DNA of 64,000 nt from Eledone cirrhosa (taxonomy: Eukaryota): positions 34,224,001 to 34,288,000 of the forward strand of contig OZ024751.1 of assembly GCA_964016885.1 (NCBI GenBank). The letters are read 5' to 3'. A program made the position numbers and the translations under genes. Below the pieces are notes generated by a model that made no database searches, was not told the DNA's origin, and saw only the letters and a list, made by a program, of their open reading frames with translations. This document shows positions 19,309-47,965 of the stretch, piece by piece; the first letter of the stretch is position 1, and each line of letters opens with the position of its first letter.

Positions 19309-19699
19309 TATATTAATAAAAGGAATTCCAACTTTGTCTGATTTACTCGTTTTATTTACAATCCTTTAAAATTTATAATGGTATTATAATGAAATAGTAT
19401 GATAGAATATTAAATGTTAAGTGTTAATTAAACAAGTACTTTCATGCTTTCGCAATCTTCAGGTTCATAATGCGTGGTGACAGTCAAGTTTGCAATTTTC
19501 AACAGTTGAAAATTGCAAACTTGACTGTCACCACGCATTATGAACCTGAAGATTGCGAAAGCATGAAAGTACTTGTTTAATTAACACTTAACATTTAATA
19601 TTCTATCATACTATTTCATTATAATACCATTATAAATTTTAAAGGATTGTAAATAAAATGAGTAAATCAGACAAAGTTGGAACTCCTTTTATTAATATA
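19309..19699. mobile_element. Fold-back palindrome 1 (195-bp arms), putative Penelope-like 3'-end remnant
   Basis: Arms are reverse-complementary around 19504 with 2 mismatches; right end abuts (TA)n; each arm carries a hammerhead. Confidence 0.85.
19541..19579 (+). ncRNA. Minimal type-I hammerhead ribozyme (mirror copy on minus strand at 19429-19467)
   Basis: UGAAC-CUGAAGA-U-UGC-GAAA-GCA-U-GAA-AGUACU-U-GUUUA: stem I 5 bp, intact core, stem II with GAAA tetraloop, palindromic stem III; predicted cleavage after 19574. Confidence 0.8.
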
Positions 19700-20988
19700 T
19701 ATATATATATATATATATATATATATATATATATATATATATATATATATATATATATATATATATATAGGGCGGGTAAAATATATATATGTTCTCAAAA
19801 CGTTTCTCCGTTGATGCCATCCCTTAAATGTTACGCAACTCTATCTGGTGTAAAATAGTATTTCCTGTCTATTAAGACGATGACAATTTTATCTGTTCAG
19901 TGAATTTTTATTAATTCAACACAGATACACAACACAGTGAACGGTTGATAAATCTGGTTTAATAGTTATTTCCTATGAAATATTTTATTTCAACACCTGA
20001 GTGCAAAAGTTTTGATATATCTCATATGTAGGTCGAGTCATTAATTACTGGTATATTTCACTACTCAAGTGAGAAGTCATTCTAACAAATTCGAAAATGT
20101 ATTTAAATAATTTTTGGGCTCTCATATATTTTACTGGAATCTATTTTGGTAAGTCAGAACTTTAAGAGGTTGCTATGAAACAGAGGGTAACCTTGTAAGT
20201 ATTCCAGATGAAATATTTTAACATTGTTCAATGTCTTGGAATTCTCAATTATCTATAGCTGATATCGCCTTGTCTCATTAATGTGTCGTTTGCTTTATTC
20301 TCTGATATTCAATGTTCTCTTATACTCCGTCGTATTGCCATTACTTCCAACATACATGCTTTTTAATAACTAATGGTTCTCGGCGCTAATTTGTATAACG
20401 CTGTCTTCATATATTCTGTCTTCACGTTGTTCAGTATCACTTTAGTAATACAATCCATGTTAATGGAACTTACTTCCACCTGGTATATTGAGGTTTTAGT
20501 AAAGTTTAGCAAAACAGCCAATTAATCTAACATGAGCTGTCACTTCTCTTTCTACTATAGTGTCTTTCACACAATATAGATCACTTCGAAACAGTGTTTA
20601 TTAACAACACTCCTATAATACTGCGACAAGTTCTCTAATGCCAGTGCCCGTCAAACCGAAGGAACATGGTTTCGACATTTAACGACTGTACGGCTGCTCC
20701 ATTCCTCCTCGTAATAAAACAGTTAACCTCACTCCTTTAGTTTCTTTTTCATATATATATATACAGAGGGAGAGAGAGAGAGAGAGAGAGAGAGAGAGAG
20801 AGAGAGAGAGAGAGAGAGAGAGAGAGAGAGAGAGAGAGAGAGATTAAAATAAATATTATTTTAATCACATTATACCATAAATCATATCAAATATGCTTAA
20901 TACAGGCTAAAATCGACATACGTCACACCCAACGATGCTGCGCAATAAAAACATATCTTAGTTGAATGTTTAACATAAGAGAATATGA

Positions 20989-21026
20989 GCCTTAAAGTGT
21001 CGGACGCTAGGCCTTCGTCGGAAGAT
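20989..21026 (-). ncRNA. Degenerate hammerhead-like motif
   Basis: Minus strand CUU-CCGACGA-AGGCCUAGCGUCC-GACA-CUUU-AAGG; core and GAAA are both mutated. Confidence 0.3.
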
Positions 21027-23487
21027 AGTATGAGAAATAAAAGAAATAGAAAGATAGAGCGATAGATGAAGAAAAAATATTATGAAGAAAAAGCATGTGC
21101 GTGTTCAAAATATATACTTATATAAATATATGTATTTAATATATACAAGTATATATATATATGTGTATGTATATAATCATTTTTGAAAGGAAATGTTTAA
21201 GTTTGAAAACTACGGCAACCTGTTTGCAGAAGGATAAAACAGTTTCTAAAATACATAATTATTATATTGCATGCGATTGGAAATGTTCGATTGTGAAAGT
21301 AATGATACACATACCAATAAAATATACACAGGCAAACACACGCATACACACACTTGCATATATATATACATACATACACACACATCATAAATCATGTAGG
21401 TTTCACGTGAGTGTATTAATTTTACTCTTCAATGTCATTGCAGATATACATACGCATAAACGTTCACAACACGTTAAGTACACATTCACACACGTACACA
21501 TGCACAGTTGAACTTAAGTACACACACACACACACACACACACACACACACACACACACACACACACACACATACATACACATATATAATAATCTGTTAA
21601 CATTTTTGCATATATGTTGAAAGGTTATTGCGCATATATATACGTTAAATATATCTTCATCACATGCTATATATATATATATATATATATATATATATAT
21701 ATATATATATATATATATATATATATATATATATATATATATATATATGTGTGTGTGTATACACACACACAGGCACAGTAAAATACAACCCTACATCATA
21801 TATACATACATATATATATATACATGTTTGATATCGCCTCAAGAATATTGGACGATGTTAAAAGCAGGATGTTTACGATGTTTCGAATATCTTTTATTAT
21901 TTTTTGTATTAATTTTAAGCTTTTTACTCAAAACATATCATATGTAGGTATGTACACATATATACATACATATATATATATATCCATATATATATATATA
22001 CATATACATATATACGTAAATATATATATATATATATATATATATATATATATATATACACGTAAATATACATATACATATATATATATAACGTAAATAT
22101 ACATATATATATATACGTAAATATACATATATATATATATATAAATATACATATATATATATGTATAAATATACATATATACATATATATATGTATATGT
22201 ACTTGTATGTGTATATATATATATATATATATATATATATATATATATATATATATATATATATATATATATACGATGTATGAGTGTTGGTTAATGCAAA
22301 ACGAAGTGGAATGCACGCCTAACTTGTGATATTATCCTTTTAGAATACCCTAAATGCAATGTTTTCCAAAGATTAGGGCGATCATTAGATGCCATAGAAT
22401 AGTTTGATGTTACGTGATGCATTCCCAGCCCAGAGAGATTCTCTTAGATTTCCTTCATTCCTCCACATTAGAACACCAAACATAAATCCACCATTTTAAT
22501 TTATCATCACGTATAAGTGATATGTGAATATATAGGCACGTATATATATATATATATATATATATATATATATATATATATATATATATATATATATATA
22601 TATATATATATATATATATATATATGTGTGTGTGTGTGTGTATCTTGTATGTATGCATAACGATAAAGATTGTAGATTGGCCAACATATCTTCACATCGG
22701 TTCCTTTTTCCTGCAGACACACATACACACACCAATATATATGTGTGTGTTTGTTTGTATGTGTACTTGTGTCTATATATATAAATATGTGCTAATGTAC
22801 ATATATGTCTATGCATATTTAACATTAATATCCATATTTATATCCATAAAATACCTCAGTGTATACATATATATATATATATATATATATATATATATAT
22901 ATATATAATATACACATGACTGGATAGATGAATGGAACATTGAAATTCTATCTGTATGTATGTATGTATATATATCTTCTAAATTATAGAATAAAGTCGT
23001 TTACACATTGCCATAACACGCATTTATACATTTTTCTTTGAATTCAGGATAGCTCCATGGTTATGTATGTGTTCGAGTATGATAGGATCTAGATTTCATT
23101 GAGAATTTCAGCGCAGGCACCTGCACATATATGTAGGTGCCTGCACATATATGTTGGTGCCTGCGTTTATGTATCTGTGTGTGTGTGTGTGTATATATAT
23201 ATCTACTTACCTATCTATCTCTCTCTCTATATATATATATATGTATATACTCCTATATAATCAGTTTAAGGACAACATTCTGTACTCACCCACTGAAGGC
23301 CATCCCAACCATACAATAAATGCTAACAGAAAAAGAAGTATTACCTGGTTCGCATTCCCCCTTTTCTCTTAAGGTAAAGACTAATATAAAGTAAGAAGCC
23401 ATATATGATATCATTTATATCCACGAAACAGGAACAAAAACGCACGCCATCTAATGTTACAGTACTGACCATATCACCACATTGTAA

Positions 23488-46482: not shown

Positions 46483-46620
46483 CAGCATAGTTACGTCCCT
46501 TTACGATCTGAGTTCAAATCCCGCCGAGGTTGACTTTGCCTTTCATCCTTACGGGGTCGATAAAATAAAGTACCAGTAATGCACTGGGTAATTGCTGGCC
46601 TTGTGCCTAAAGCAGAAAAA
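46483..46620 (+). mobile_element. 5'-truncated SINE family A with 17-bp target-site duplication
   Basis: attatttcaatcatatc at 46466-46482 and 46621-46637. Confidence 0.93.
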
Positions 46621-47024
46621 ATTATTTCAATCATATCTTATTTTGTTTGACTCGTTTAGCTTGTTCGCTTTTTTGGCTCAGGTGGTTAATGTCTTCTTAA
46701 CCATCGTCTCAGTTTTGTATGACCTTTTTAACTTATGTTTGTAGCTCTGGTATCTTCATATCCATGGAGCGCTTGTCAACACAATTCGGAAGTTGCGTTT
46801 CGCTAATTTCTACCCGCCGAAATGCGATTCTCGCTAAATTTATATTTATATATATATATATATATATATATATATATATATATATATATGTAGATAAATC
46901 TACCAAAAGTTTACGGTGAGTGTCCAATCCGTATGAAGAACTCAATGTAATCCGGATATCATGAAAAGAGAAGATGCATTCAAAAACTACTTTCGGTGAA
47001 AAATAAACGGAAAACAGAGTCAAG

Positions 47025-47965
47025 ATAAATTAATAAAATAATGAATAAACAAAGAAACAGTTCCTTATATTAAAAAAAATTCATCATTTTACGATCGTTT
47101 CTAGGATATATATGTGTTAGAGTTGGTATGCATATTCTATAGATCTATGTACAATATTTATACAAACTATCAGAGGGAATATACATACCTACACATATAT
47201 ATGCTGTCTTCAGAAATAATGATATTTGTTTATTGAAAAAAACAAAGATTCAATACAATAGGTCTGTTTGGGAACAGGTTTTGAATTGACCAATAGAGAG
47301 ATAGTGAGGGTCAGGATAGTAATATAGTAGTAGAAGAACCTTAAATTATGGGTAGAGGAAGGTAGATTTCAGTTTTGGATGGAAAAGAATATTATGAATG
47401 AAGGATTATTTTAGGGAAGAAATAGGTCTTATGTTGACCTCAGAAATAATTTTATTTGTTCATTGAATAAAACCAACAAAGATCTAATATATTCTGTCTG
47501 TTTGGTAAGAGGTTTAGAATTAACCAATATAAAGTTAATAATTGGCCAAATGGTAAAATAGTAGTAATTGAAGCTTATTTTAGGGGTGACAATAGGTCAG
47601 GTGGTCAGTAAAAGGTATACAAGCAGTTGCTGTTATAAAATAGTAATGCCAATACAAATATCTAAGGTGACTAAAGTTTTAAGATAAGAATGTTAGTGAA
47701 AAAAATACATCTATGAAAAGAATATAAATTAATTTAATTGATGGGTATATTTATATTGATAAAATTATACTAATACATATAGATATGATAAATAAGAGTT
47801 AGATGCAGTTGAAAAGTGGTGTTAAAGATGAGGGGAAATTAAAATAATATAAAAATAATATATATATATATATATACTTATATATCCTAGAAACGATCGT
47901 AAAATGATGAATTTTTTTAATATAAGGAACTGTTTCTTTGTTTATTCATTATTTTATTAATTTAT
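47025..47965. mobile_element. Penelope-like remnant with ~88-bp terminal inverted repeats
   Basis: 47025-47112 is the reverse complement of 47879-47965; internal diverged ~230-bp duplication (from 47207 versus from 47437); right end abuts (TA)n. Confidence 0.8.
47081..47222 (-). ncRNA. Hammerhead ribozyme with ~105-nt stem II
   Basis: Minus strand UCAUUAUUU-CUGAAGA-[long imperfect hairpin]-GAA-ACGAUCGU-A-AAAUGAUGA: stem I 9 bp, intact core, palindromic stem III; predicted GUA cleavage at 47090. Confidence 0.75.

What the first reader, a model, noticed from the sequence alone, without database searches (positions are those of the whole stretch)
19309..47965. Recurrent fold-back, hammerhead-bearing mini-elements in (TA)n microsatellites: four sequence-unrelated families with one architecture
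Seen: four inverted-repeat elements in 29 kb (19309-19699, 32514-32884, 36241-36516, 47025-47965) with no evident primary similarity. Each lies in a segment bounded by (TA)n tracts. Each has a one-sided unpaired tail of roughly 50-135 bp. Each carries a type-I hammerhead fold (CUGANGA or UUGAAAA...GAA) whose 3' end points outward and whose stem III is a self-complementary 6-8-mer (AGUACU, AUAUAUAU, ACCGGU, ACGAUCGU). Established: Penelope-like elements carry minimal hammerheads with palindromic stem III in their pseudo-LTRs, thought to cleave as dimers, and often integrate with an inverted 5'-truncated copy. Inference: these are ORF-less, TA-targeted PLE-derived ribozyme cassettes. They may be a diverse non-autonomous system in this genome, with stems co-varying between families.
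Basis: partly seen in the sequence, partly recalled or inferred. Interest (0 to 1): 0.9.

Follow-up and report, generated by a model that had tools for sequence, protein, structure and literature searches.

The report
Mirror-image ends of Penelope retrotransposons
These four palindromes are short mirror-image end pieces of four ordinary Penelope-type jumping genes that sit in TA repeats and carry a predicted self-cutting RNA motif, and their almost invariable 'one long arm, one short arm' design likely records a single RNA being copied twice from both sides of a DNA break.

Summary
The four fold-backs, their TA flanks, one-sided tails and minimal hammerhead motifs are real (47 motifs in 1 Mb outside the window, 0 in each of 8 shuffles). 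Element 4 has a complete motif in one arm only. They are not a separate ORF-less system: each is the 3' end (pseudo-LTR) of a protein-coding Penelope-like element in this genome, two of the Hydra clade (45% identical proteins) and two Neptune-like. Head-to-head truncated copies, tails, TA targeting and opposite-strand hammerhead pairs are already described. What the copies add: 63 of 65 inverted pairs have one tailed and one tail-less arm ending at a fixed site; 60 of 65 junctions differ; the two arms share variants; and 5' ends pile up at one spot per family, 30-31 nt behind a TATA box in two of four. Best reading (inferred): the enzyme primes both DNA ends at the two known reverse-transcription start sites of one RNA, and many copies run only to the transcript's 5' end. 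Fold-back self-priming plus trimming is not excluded. No RNA data were available; cleavage is untested; most fold-backs nearby (68 of 81) lack the strict motif.

The parts
19260..19308 (-). E1 (family F1) tail: 3' extension present on one arm only
   Evidence: same tail in other F1 copies
19309..19503 (-). E1 left (tailed) arm, 3' part of a Neptune-like PLE pseudo-LTR; minimal hammerhead at 19467-19429
   Evidence: parent EN in L128
19505..19699 (+). E1 right (tail-less) arm; hammerhead 19541-19579, predicted cut 19574/19575; 5' edge is 31 nt behind a TATA box in longer copies
32426..32513 (-). E2 (family F2) tail; in tandem copies it runs on into the ORF start
32514..32696 (-). E2 left (tailed) arm, Hydra-clade pseudo-LTR end; hammerhead 32622-32557; predicted 85-nt intron whose acceptor lies in the core's GAAA
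32702..32884 (+). E2 right (tail-less) arm; hammerhead 32776-32841
36236..36375 (-). E3 (family F3) left (tail-less) arm; U3-A8 core hammerhead 36349-36312
36382..36521 (+). E3 right (tailed) arm, Neptune-like pseudo-LTR end; hammerhead 36408-36445; 5' edge is 30 nt behind a TATA box in longer copies
36522..36584 (+). E3 tail; directly precedes the ORF in tandem copy L134
46890..47024 (-). E4 (family F4) tail, 135 nt
47025..47860 (-). E4 long arm: 3' UTR/pseudo-LTR of a Hydra-clade PLE; complete hammerhead 47222-47081 with 105-nt stem II holding a predicted 88-nt intron (47188-47101); family 5'-edge hot spot at 47220; internal partial duplication
47876..47965 (+). E4 short tail-less arm, 91 nt, 3' half of the hammerhead only
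19226..19259 (.). (TA)n tract left of E1 (like tracts flank both sides of all four elements: 19700-19769, 32405-32425, 32885-32901, 36228-36240 and after 36584, 46850-46889, after 47965)
   Evidence: boundaries of the tracts read by eye

Best explanation
Each element is a head-to-head pair of shortened 3' ends (pseudo-LTRs) of a protein-coding Penelope-like retrotransposon, one arm with the tail and one without, and it likely arises in a single insertion in which the element's enzyme cuts a TA repeat on both strands and copies the same RNA twice. SHOWN here: parentage in four RT/GIY-YIG families; one tailed plus one tail-less arm ending at a fixed site; arms sharing variants; junctions made anew; 5' ends piling up at one position per family; unspliced copies with an uncut hammerhead. 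INFERRED: one DNA end primes at the far reverse-transcription start site (tailed arm), the other at the near one (tail-less arm); both cDNAs run toward the RNA's 5' end (the second displacing the first); their 3' ends then pair through a few bases or are bridged by filler and copy each other, closing the gap. The shortest, symmetric elements arise when copying starts at the start sites that lie only 200-330 nt from the 5' end of the transcript and runs off at the transcription start, which is why the palindrome centres recur at one spot. The hammerhead is a passenger of the pseudo-LTR, predicted to cut only as a dimer through its palindromic stem III, and is not needed to make the palindrome.
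For: Parents: F2 and F4 copies continue into RT-EN ORFs with Hydra motifs, F3 into an ORF with Pfam GIY-YIG and RVT_1 hits, F1 into a decayed EN 45% identical to F3's. Arm rule: 63 of 65 inverted pairs found among 139 loci are long+short, 2 long+long. Arms of one element are closer than arms of different elements: F1 1.3% vs 3.5% (13 pairs), F3 1.3% vs 2.0% (16 pairs), 0 of 5000 permutations as low; private variants shared by both arms. Non-nesting: the tail-less arm reaches more than 10 nt further 5' than the tailed arm in 17 of 63 pairs, the reverse in 9, equal within 10 nt in 37, so neither arm is always a copy of the other. Centres: 11 of 33 near-symmetric pairs have a loop of 0-1 nt, too tight for a self-priming hairpin, and several F1 pairs have both arms complete to the same first base with 1-121 nt of filler between. 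5' edge: 32 of 40 (F1), 22 of 48 (F2), 23 of 46 (F3), 17 of 70 (F4) arm ends fall in windows of 6-22 nt, with 0, 1, 0 and 3 in the 40 nt upstream; TATA box at -31 (F1) and -30 (F3); a fifth, motif-less family has its edge about 30 nt behind a TATA-like box and on an initiator-like word. Published biochemistry of an anole PLE: both strands cut and extended, two internal RT start sites bracket the tail, hammerhead cleavage dispensable, dimer predicted (PMC11167929).
Against: No RNA evidence for the transcription start. F2 has its TATA at -23 and F4 has none. Edge windows were drawn after seeing the data, and the F1 sample was selected to reach the edge. F2-F4 samples were selected for a tailed arm, so short+short pairs could not appear there (F1, not so selected: 0 of 14). 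Tail-only arms, the simplest twin-priming product, were absent from 30 F4 loci picked by the tail alone; one example was seen in another family. Palindromes lose their centres after insertion (general knowledge), which could mimic non-nesting and tight loops; gene conversion could mimic shared variants. In vitro no difference in RT start site was seen between the two strands, so the strict long+short rule is not yet explained by that assay. One head-to-head join of two different families (L010) does not fit one RNA.
Confidence: 0.58

Rival explanations
1. Self-priming fold-back: one cDNA (or an antisense RNA, as proposed for rotifer PLEs) folds back and copies itself; the endonuclease then trims the second arm at the near site; later central deletions blur the junctions.
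For: Explains shared variants and the strict long+short rule directly; 37 of 63 pairs are near-symmetric and 18 of 33 scored centres have loops of 3 nt or more; self-priming was proposed in PMC3846280 and EN resolution of the tail in PMC8557442 (passages).
Against: Either arm can carry the extra 5' sequence (17 vs 9 pairs); 11 of 33 centres have 0-1 nt loops; filler-bridged pairs have both arms complete to the same first base; the near site is an RT start site in vitro.
Confidence: 0.26
2. One reading: ORF-less non-autonomous ribozyme cassettes (retrozyme- or MITE-like) that are copied as whole palindromes by PLE proteins.
For: Minis are very common: 8 close divergent motif pairs in 1 Mb; summed contig depth over the F2 mini region is about 80-140 times that just upstream (a weak hint, not a copy number); a few junctions recur. 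Tandem retrozymes are argued to be PLE-derived (bioRxiv 10.64898/2026.07.22.740005, abstract and introduction).
Against: 60 distinct junctions in 65 pairs; arms are 95-100% identical to the ends of coding copies; lengths grade continuously into ORF-bearing copies; no tandem monomer arrays in the four families' loci examined; asymmetric ends are unlike terminal inverted repeats.
Confidence: 0.07
3. Two-ended priming by two different RNA molecules (two particles or a dimer with two RNAs).
For: One heterologous head-to-head join (L010); a few arm-specific variants that are common in other copies.
Against: Arms share subfamily and private variants far beyond chance; possible only if both RNAs come from one source locus.
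Confidence: 0.08
4. Sequencing or assembly fold-back artefact.
For: E2's arms are 100% identical; perfect inversions are a known long-read artefact (general knowledge).
Against: Family-specific asymmetry at fixed sites in 63 of 65 pairs, mismatches between arms in older copies, filler at centres; contigs of three public runs show loose ends into TA repeats near the F2 short site (possibly the same animal).
Confidence: 0.01

Closest known systems
Hydra-clade PLEs (Craig et al. 2021, PMC8557442; includes Hydra-1_Obim from Octopus bimaculoides)
   Same: F2 and F4 parents: single ORF, C-terminal GIY-YIG, DKT, CxCX5C linker, CxxC and CxH around E and N, no CCHH, hammerhead, (TA)n targets; inverted 5'-truncated copy and one-sided tail as in that paper's Fig. 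2 legend.
   Different: RWR rather than RWK; repeat units of 3.7 and 4.25 kb against 'generally <3 kb'; tails of 88 and 135 nt against 30-40 nt; clear pseudo-LTRs where Hydra-1_Obim is listed with none; long stem II with a predicted intron.
Neptune-clade PLEs
   Same: F3 parent: DKG, CX4CxxC linker, CCHH, C-terminal GIY-YIG, microsatellite targeting; F1 parent similar to F3's.
   Different: No tree was built; Nematis not excluded; F1's ORF seen only decayed.
Minimal hammerheads of metazoan PLEs (Cervera and de la Pena 2014, PMC4209133)
   Same: Type I, short stem I, palindromic stem III, unpaired base at the foot of stem II, U3-A8 core variant; that paper already notes pairs 100-700 bp apart on opposite strands in Schistosoma and an intron overlapping the D. 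virilis motif.
   Different: Stem II up to 105-116 nt; predicted 3' splice site on the core's own G-AAA in two families.
Poseidon PAc of green anole (Frangieh et al. 2024, PMC11167929)
   Same: Two RT start sites bracketing the tail, both strands cut and extended, hammerhead dispensable.
   Different: That study does not model inverted insertions (the word occurs once, for a blocking group) and saw no strand preference for start sites.
L1 twin priming (recalled, not read here)
   Same: Two primers from one target break on one RNA give an inversion.
   Different: In L1 the two cDNAs cover different parts of the RNA; here they overlap and give a palindrome.
Non-LTR retrozymes (bioRxiv 10.64898/2026.07.22.740005)
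   Same: ORF-less, type-I hammerhead, PLE-related.
   Different: Defined by tandem hammerhead repeats; these are inverted pairs contiguous in sequence with coding parents.

Membership tests
EN+ Penelope-like elements | Family encodes RT with C-terminal GIY-YIG endonuclease | tested here: met
   Pfam hits only for F3 (GIY-YIG above cut-off, RVT_1 just below); none for the 2 Hydra proteins; F1 decayed
EN+ Penelope-like elements | Pseudo-LTR from partial tandem, tail running into ORF start | tested here: met
   L121 (F4), L124/L125 (F2), L134 (F3); not seen for F1
EN+ Penelope-like elements | Inverted 5'-truncated copy and one-sided tail | tested here: met
   63 of 65 pairs
EN+ Penelope-like elements | Intron retention in copies | tested here: inconclusive
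   introns only predicted from splice words; 0 spliced vs 64 (F2) and 97 (F4) unspliced donor junctions in overlapping loci
Hydra clade (F2, F4) | DKT, CxCX5C linker, CxxC and CxH, no CCHH, no N-terminal EN | tested here: met
   (definition)
Hydra clade (F2, F4) | RWK motif; generally under 3 kb | tested here: inconclusive
   RWR in both; units of 3.7 and 4.25 kb
Hydra clade (F2, F4) | Monophyly with described Hydra proteins | not tested
   reference proteins were not available to the tools
Neptune clade (F3, F1) | DKG, CX2-5CxxC linker, CCHH | tested here: met
   F3 (definition); F1 by 42-48% similarity only
Neptune clade (F3, F1) | RT phylogeny | not tested
   no reference set
Minimal type-I hammerhead | Core, stem I, palindromic stem III above chance | tested here: met
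Minimal type-I hammerhead | Self-cleavage as dimer | not testable with these tools
   monomer folds show stem I for F3 and F4, not for F1 and F2; stem III self-duplexes -4.8, -8.3, -10.0 kcal/mol for F1, F3, F4
Non-LTR retrozymes | Tandem hammerhead-bearing repeat units | tested here: not met
   inverted pairs or solos; tandems seen are 3.7-4.3 kb coding units
MITE / fold-back DNA transposon | Symmetric terminal inverted repeats, element copied as a unit | tested here: not met
   asymmetric ends; 60 of 65 junctions distinct

The most novel reading that the evidence does not exclude
Penelope-like elements integrate by obligate double priming: both ends of a cut microsatellite copy one RNA from its two start sites and the two cDNAs template each other, so every mRNA can shed 'strong-stop' palindromes centred on its transcription start. 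This genome would hold tens of thousands of such fossils (8 close motif pairs and 81 fold-backs per sampled Mb), a base-level record of an unsolved integration mechanism and a map of each family's promoter; in two Hydra families splicing would also rebuild (F4) or remove (F2) the hammerhead because the acceptor lies in its core.
Probability: 0.4. Interest if true: 0.68.

Novelty: new member of a known kind. Interest (0 to 1): 0.45.

Why it matters
How Penelope-like elements make their head-to-head inverted ends and one-sided tails is still open: one paper proposes self-priming on antisense RNA, another endonuclease resolution, a third shows two RT start sites without linking them to inversions. 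Thousands of young copies here give a near-absolute rule (one arm per start site) and fixed 5' edges that turn this into a direct test with an existing in vitro system. It also warns repeat annotators that such palindromes are PLE ends, not MITEs or microRNA hairpins, and suggests these elements are a major source of short palindromes in TA-rich genomes.

Tried and rejected
Whole-window inverted-repeat and Rfam searches were swamped by microsatellites and microRNA look-alikes. No ORF inside E4. Expression: no RNA holder listed, so start sites, splicing and cleavage were not tested; laid contigs only, which cannot show starts and listed no strand-change joint at the F2 centre. A 5'-unbiased F1 search returned nothing; the F2 tail-only search gave places but no loci, so tail-only arms were tested in F4 alone. 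A piece of L132 first read as an inverted tail-only arm is a tandem piece. The idea that the 5' edge is the hammerhead cut site was rejected: the cut lies 55-140 nt downstream. A cap-derived extra G is not evident (bases before the F1 edge were C or G, mixed). No ORF was found upstream of 7 long copies of the fifth family. Earlier scan notes: none. Eight literature searches showed no paper stating the long+short rule, twin priming for PLEs or start-site-centred minis; subscription papers, Repbase entries and the bioRxiv supplement were out of reach and may do so.
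Full report
Setting. The window lies on a 54-Mb contig of a 3.0-Gb assembly, 32% G+C and crowded with microsatellites. 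From recall of such genomes it looks like a cephalopod; this was not tested.

1. The observation. Tails of 49, 88, 63 and 135 nt lie on one side only, and TA tracts bound each element. A strict descriptor (CUGANGA or UUGANAA core, stem I of 4 bp or more, GAAA, palindromic 4- or 6-nt insert, UH) finds seven motifs in the window: two each in E1-E3, one in E4. It finds 30 in 464 kb against a mean of 0.05 in 20 shuffles, and 47 in 1 Mb outside the window against 0 in 8 shuffles; one 200-kb stretch had none. Of those 47, 42 have (TA)6 within 300 nt downstream, against 487 of 2000 random positions. Neighbouring motifs under 1.5 kb apart were 8 divergent same-stem pairs, 2 convergent and 4 tandem. 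Conversely, of 81 fold-backs in that 1 Mb only 13 hold the strict motif, while 52 have TA tracts on both sides (control 207 of 2000) and 40 show the one-sided-tail pattern (control 52 of 2000). The architecture is therefore wider than the motif; a fifth family with 51 arm hits in the 1 Mb has a GAAA hairpin but no CUGA core in the 90 nt upstream that were read.

2. What they are. All four are multicopy (481, 2381, 481 and 1446 first-look candidates, 40 scored each; not copy numbers). Longer copies run upstream into PLE ORFs and, in tandem copies, the tail runs on into the next ORF start. F2 and F4 proteins are 45% identical and carry the Hydra-clade marks listed in PMC8557442 section 11. F3's protein has DKG, a CX4CxxC linker, CCHH and Pfam GIY-YIG and RVT_1 hits: Neptune-like by motifs. 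F1's parent was seen only as a decayed copy 42-48% identical to F3's protein. So each mini-element is the piece of a pseudo-LTR from a 5' break point through the hammerhead to the tail, twice, head to head.

3. Rules among copies. Of 139 loci (26 F1, 30 F2, 30 F3, 53 F4, after dropping 4 F1 and 7 F4 duplicates), 65 have an inverted partner within 350 nt; 63 pair a tailed arm with a tail-less arm ending at or within a few bases of one family-specific site, and 2 have two tailed arms. F2-F4 loci were picked by their tail, so only F1 could show two tail-less arms (0 of 14). Junction geometry differs in 60 of 65. Arms of one element are more alike than arms of different elements (F3 with a 13-column homopolymer stretch masked), with private variants shared; F2 is too young to tell and F4 was not tested. 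The extra 5' sequence sits on the tail-less arm in 17 pairs, on the tailed arm in 9. Of 37 near-symmetric pairs 33 had a scorable centre: 11 with a loop of 0-1 nt, 4 with 2 nt, 18 with 3 or more. 5' ends cluster at one edge per family with almost nothing just upstream, 31 and 30 nt behind a TATA box in F1 and F3, 23 nt in F2, and on an initiator-like word without TATA in F4; one F4 copy starts at the paralogous spot of the internal duplication (L264). The D. virilis promoter and start site lie in the pseudo-LTR (PMC2377424 passages) and rotifer pseudo-LTRs have TATA and initiator-like words 20 bp apart (PMC3846280 passages).

4. Mechanism. Shown: parentage, arm rule, shared variants, new junctions, fixed edges, uncut motifs in all copies. 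Inferred: both target ends prime, one at each of the two RT start sites that bracket the tail (demonstrated in vitro for an anole PLE, PMC11167929), on one RNA; the cDNAs join by short pairing or filler; run-off at the transcription start gives the symmetric minis. I put this at 0.58 and fold-back self-priming with trimming at 0.26, because central deletion and gene conversion after insertion could imitate part of the evidence, and tail-only arms were absent from 30 F4 loci. The hammerheads are predicted dimer-type; a single motif from Schistosoma did not cleave and dimers did so weakly (PMC4209133 Results). In a palindrome the two motifs are on opposite strands, so a transcript through it holds one motif inside a long hairpin and is unlikely to cut (inference). 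F2 and F4 have splice-like words bounding 85 and 88 nt with the acceptor on the core's G-AAA; no spliced copy was found; this is a prediction only.

5. Against the known. Inverted truncated copies, one-sided tails, TA targeting, an octopus Hydra family and opposite-strand hammerhead pairs are in print (PMC8557442 abstract, passages, section 11 and File S1 rows; PMC4209133 abstract and Results). A 2026 octopus repeat annotation lists active Penelope families and does not contain the words hammerhead, ribozyme or palindrome (PMC13282606 passages). Of the retrozyme preprint I saw part 1 of 5; of PMC11167929 parts 1-2 of 4 and passages. L1 twin priming is recalled. The long+short rule and start-site-centred minis did not turn up in eight searches.

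6. Verdict. Real, correctly traced to PLEs, but new members of a known kind rather than a new system. The value lies in the copy statistics, which make an open mechanistic question testable. Interest 0.45.

Noticed in passing
G000 1-Mb sample, e.g. C11:34350516-34350632; many loci (L013, L024, L050, L124:8561-8949): A fifth, very abundant TA-flanked fold-back family with one-sided tail and fixed centre about 30 nt behind a TATA-like box, lacking the hammerhead's CUGA core; no parent ORF found in 7 long copies. Candidate Naiad-type end.
   Followed up: partly
window 60244-60305: Decayed solo F3-like hammerhead end (84% to E3) behind a (TG)n tract, stem I broken.
   Followed up: partly
window 12189-12389, 18844-19079, 28661-28874, 34518-34740, 37065-37405, 46481-46644, 51615-51812, 60856-60973, 62979-63197: A dispersed SINE-like repeat family, at least nine copies; tRNA-derived look is from recall.
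   Followed up: no
L244, L260, L359: F4's 5' edge fused to the 3' end of that SINE-like repeat at three unlinked loci: recurrent template switch or target microhomology.
   Followed up: no
L029, L023, L018, L028: Centre fillers in F1 palindromes: 121 nt of short hexamer-like repeats, 79 nt of CA/TA-rich sequence, and re-copies of the element's own first bases; the same 11-nt filler recurs in two different F1 subfamilies.
   Followed up: partly
L010: Head-to-head join of an F2 relative (reverse) and F1 (forward) without TA between them.
   Followed up: no
window 56795-56882 and 58341-58470; 33464-33512 and 33807-33855: Further inverted arms 1.5 kb and 0.3 kb apart without the strict motif.
   Followed up: no
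G000:C5:60000001-60200000: No strict motif and no fold-back in this 200 kb, against 5-18 motifs in the other four stretches.
   Followed up: no
L127, L133, L139: Further PLE families (a third RT type and other Hydra-like ORFs) nested beside F2-F4 copies.
   Followed up: no
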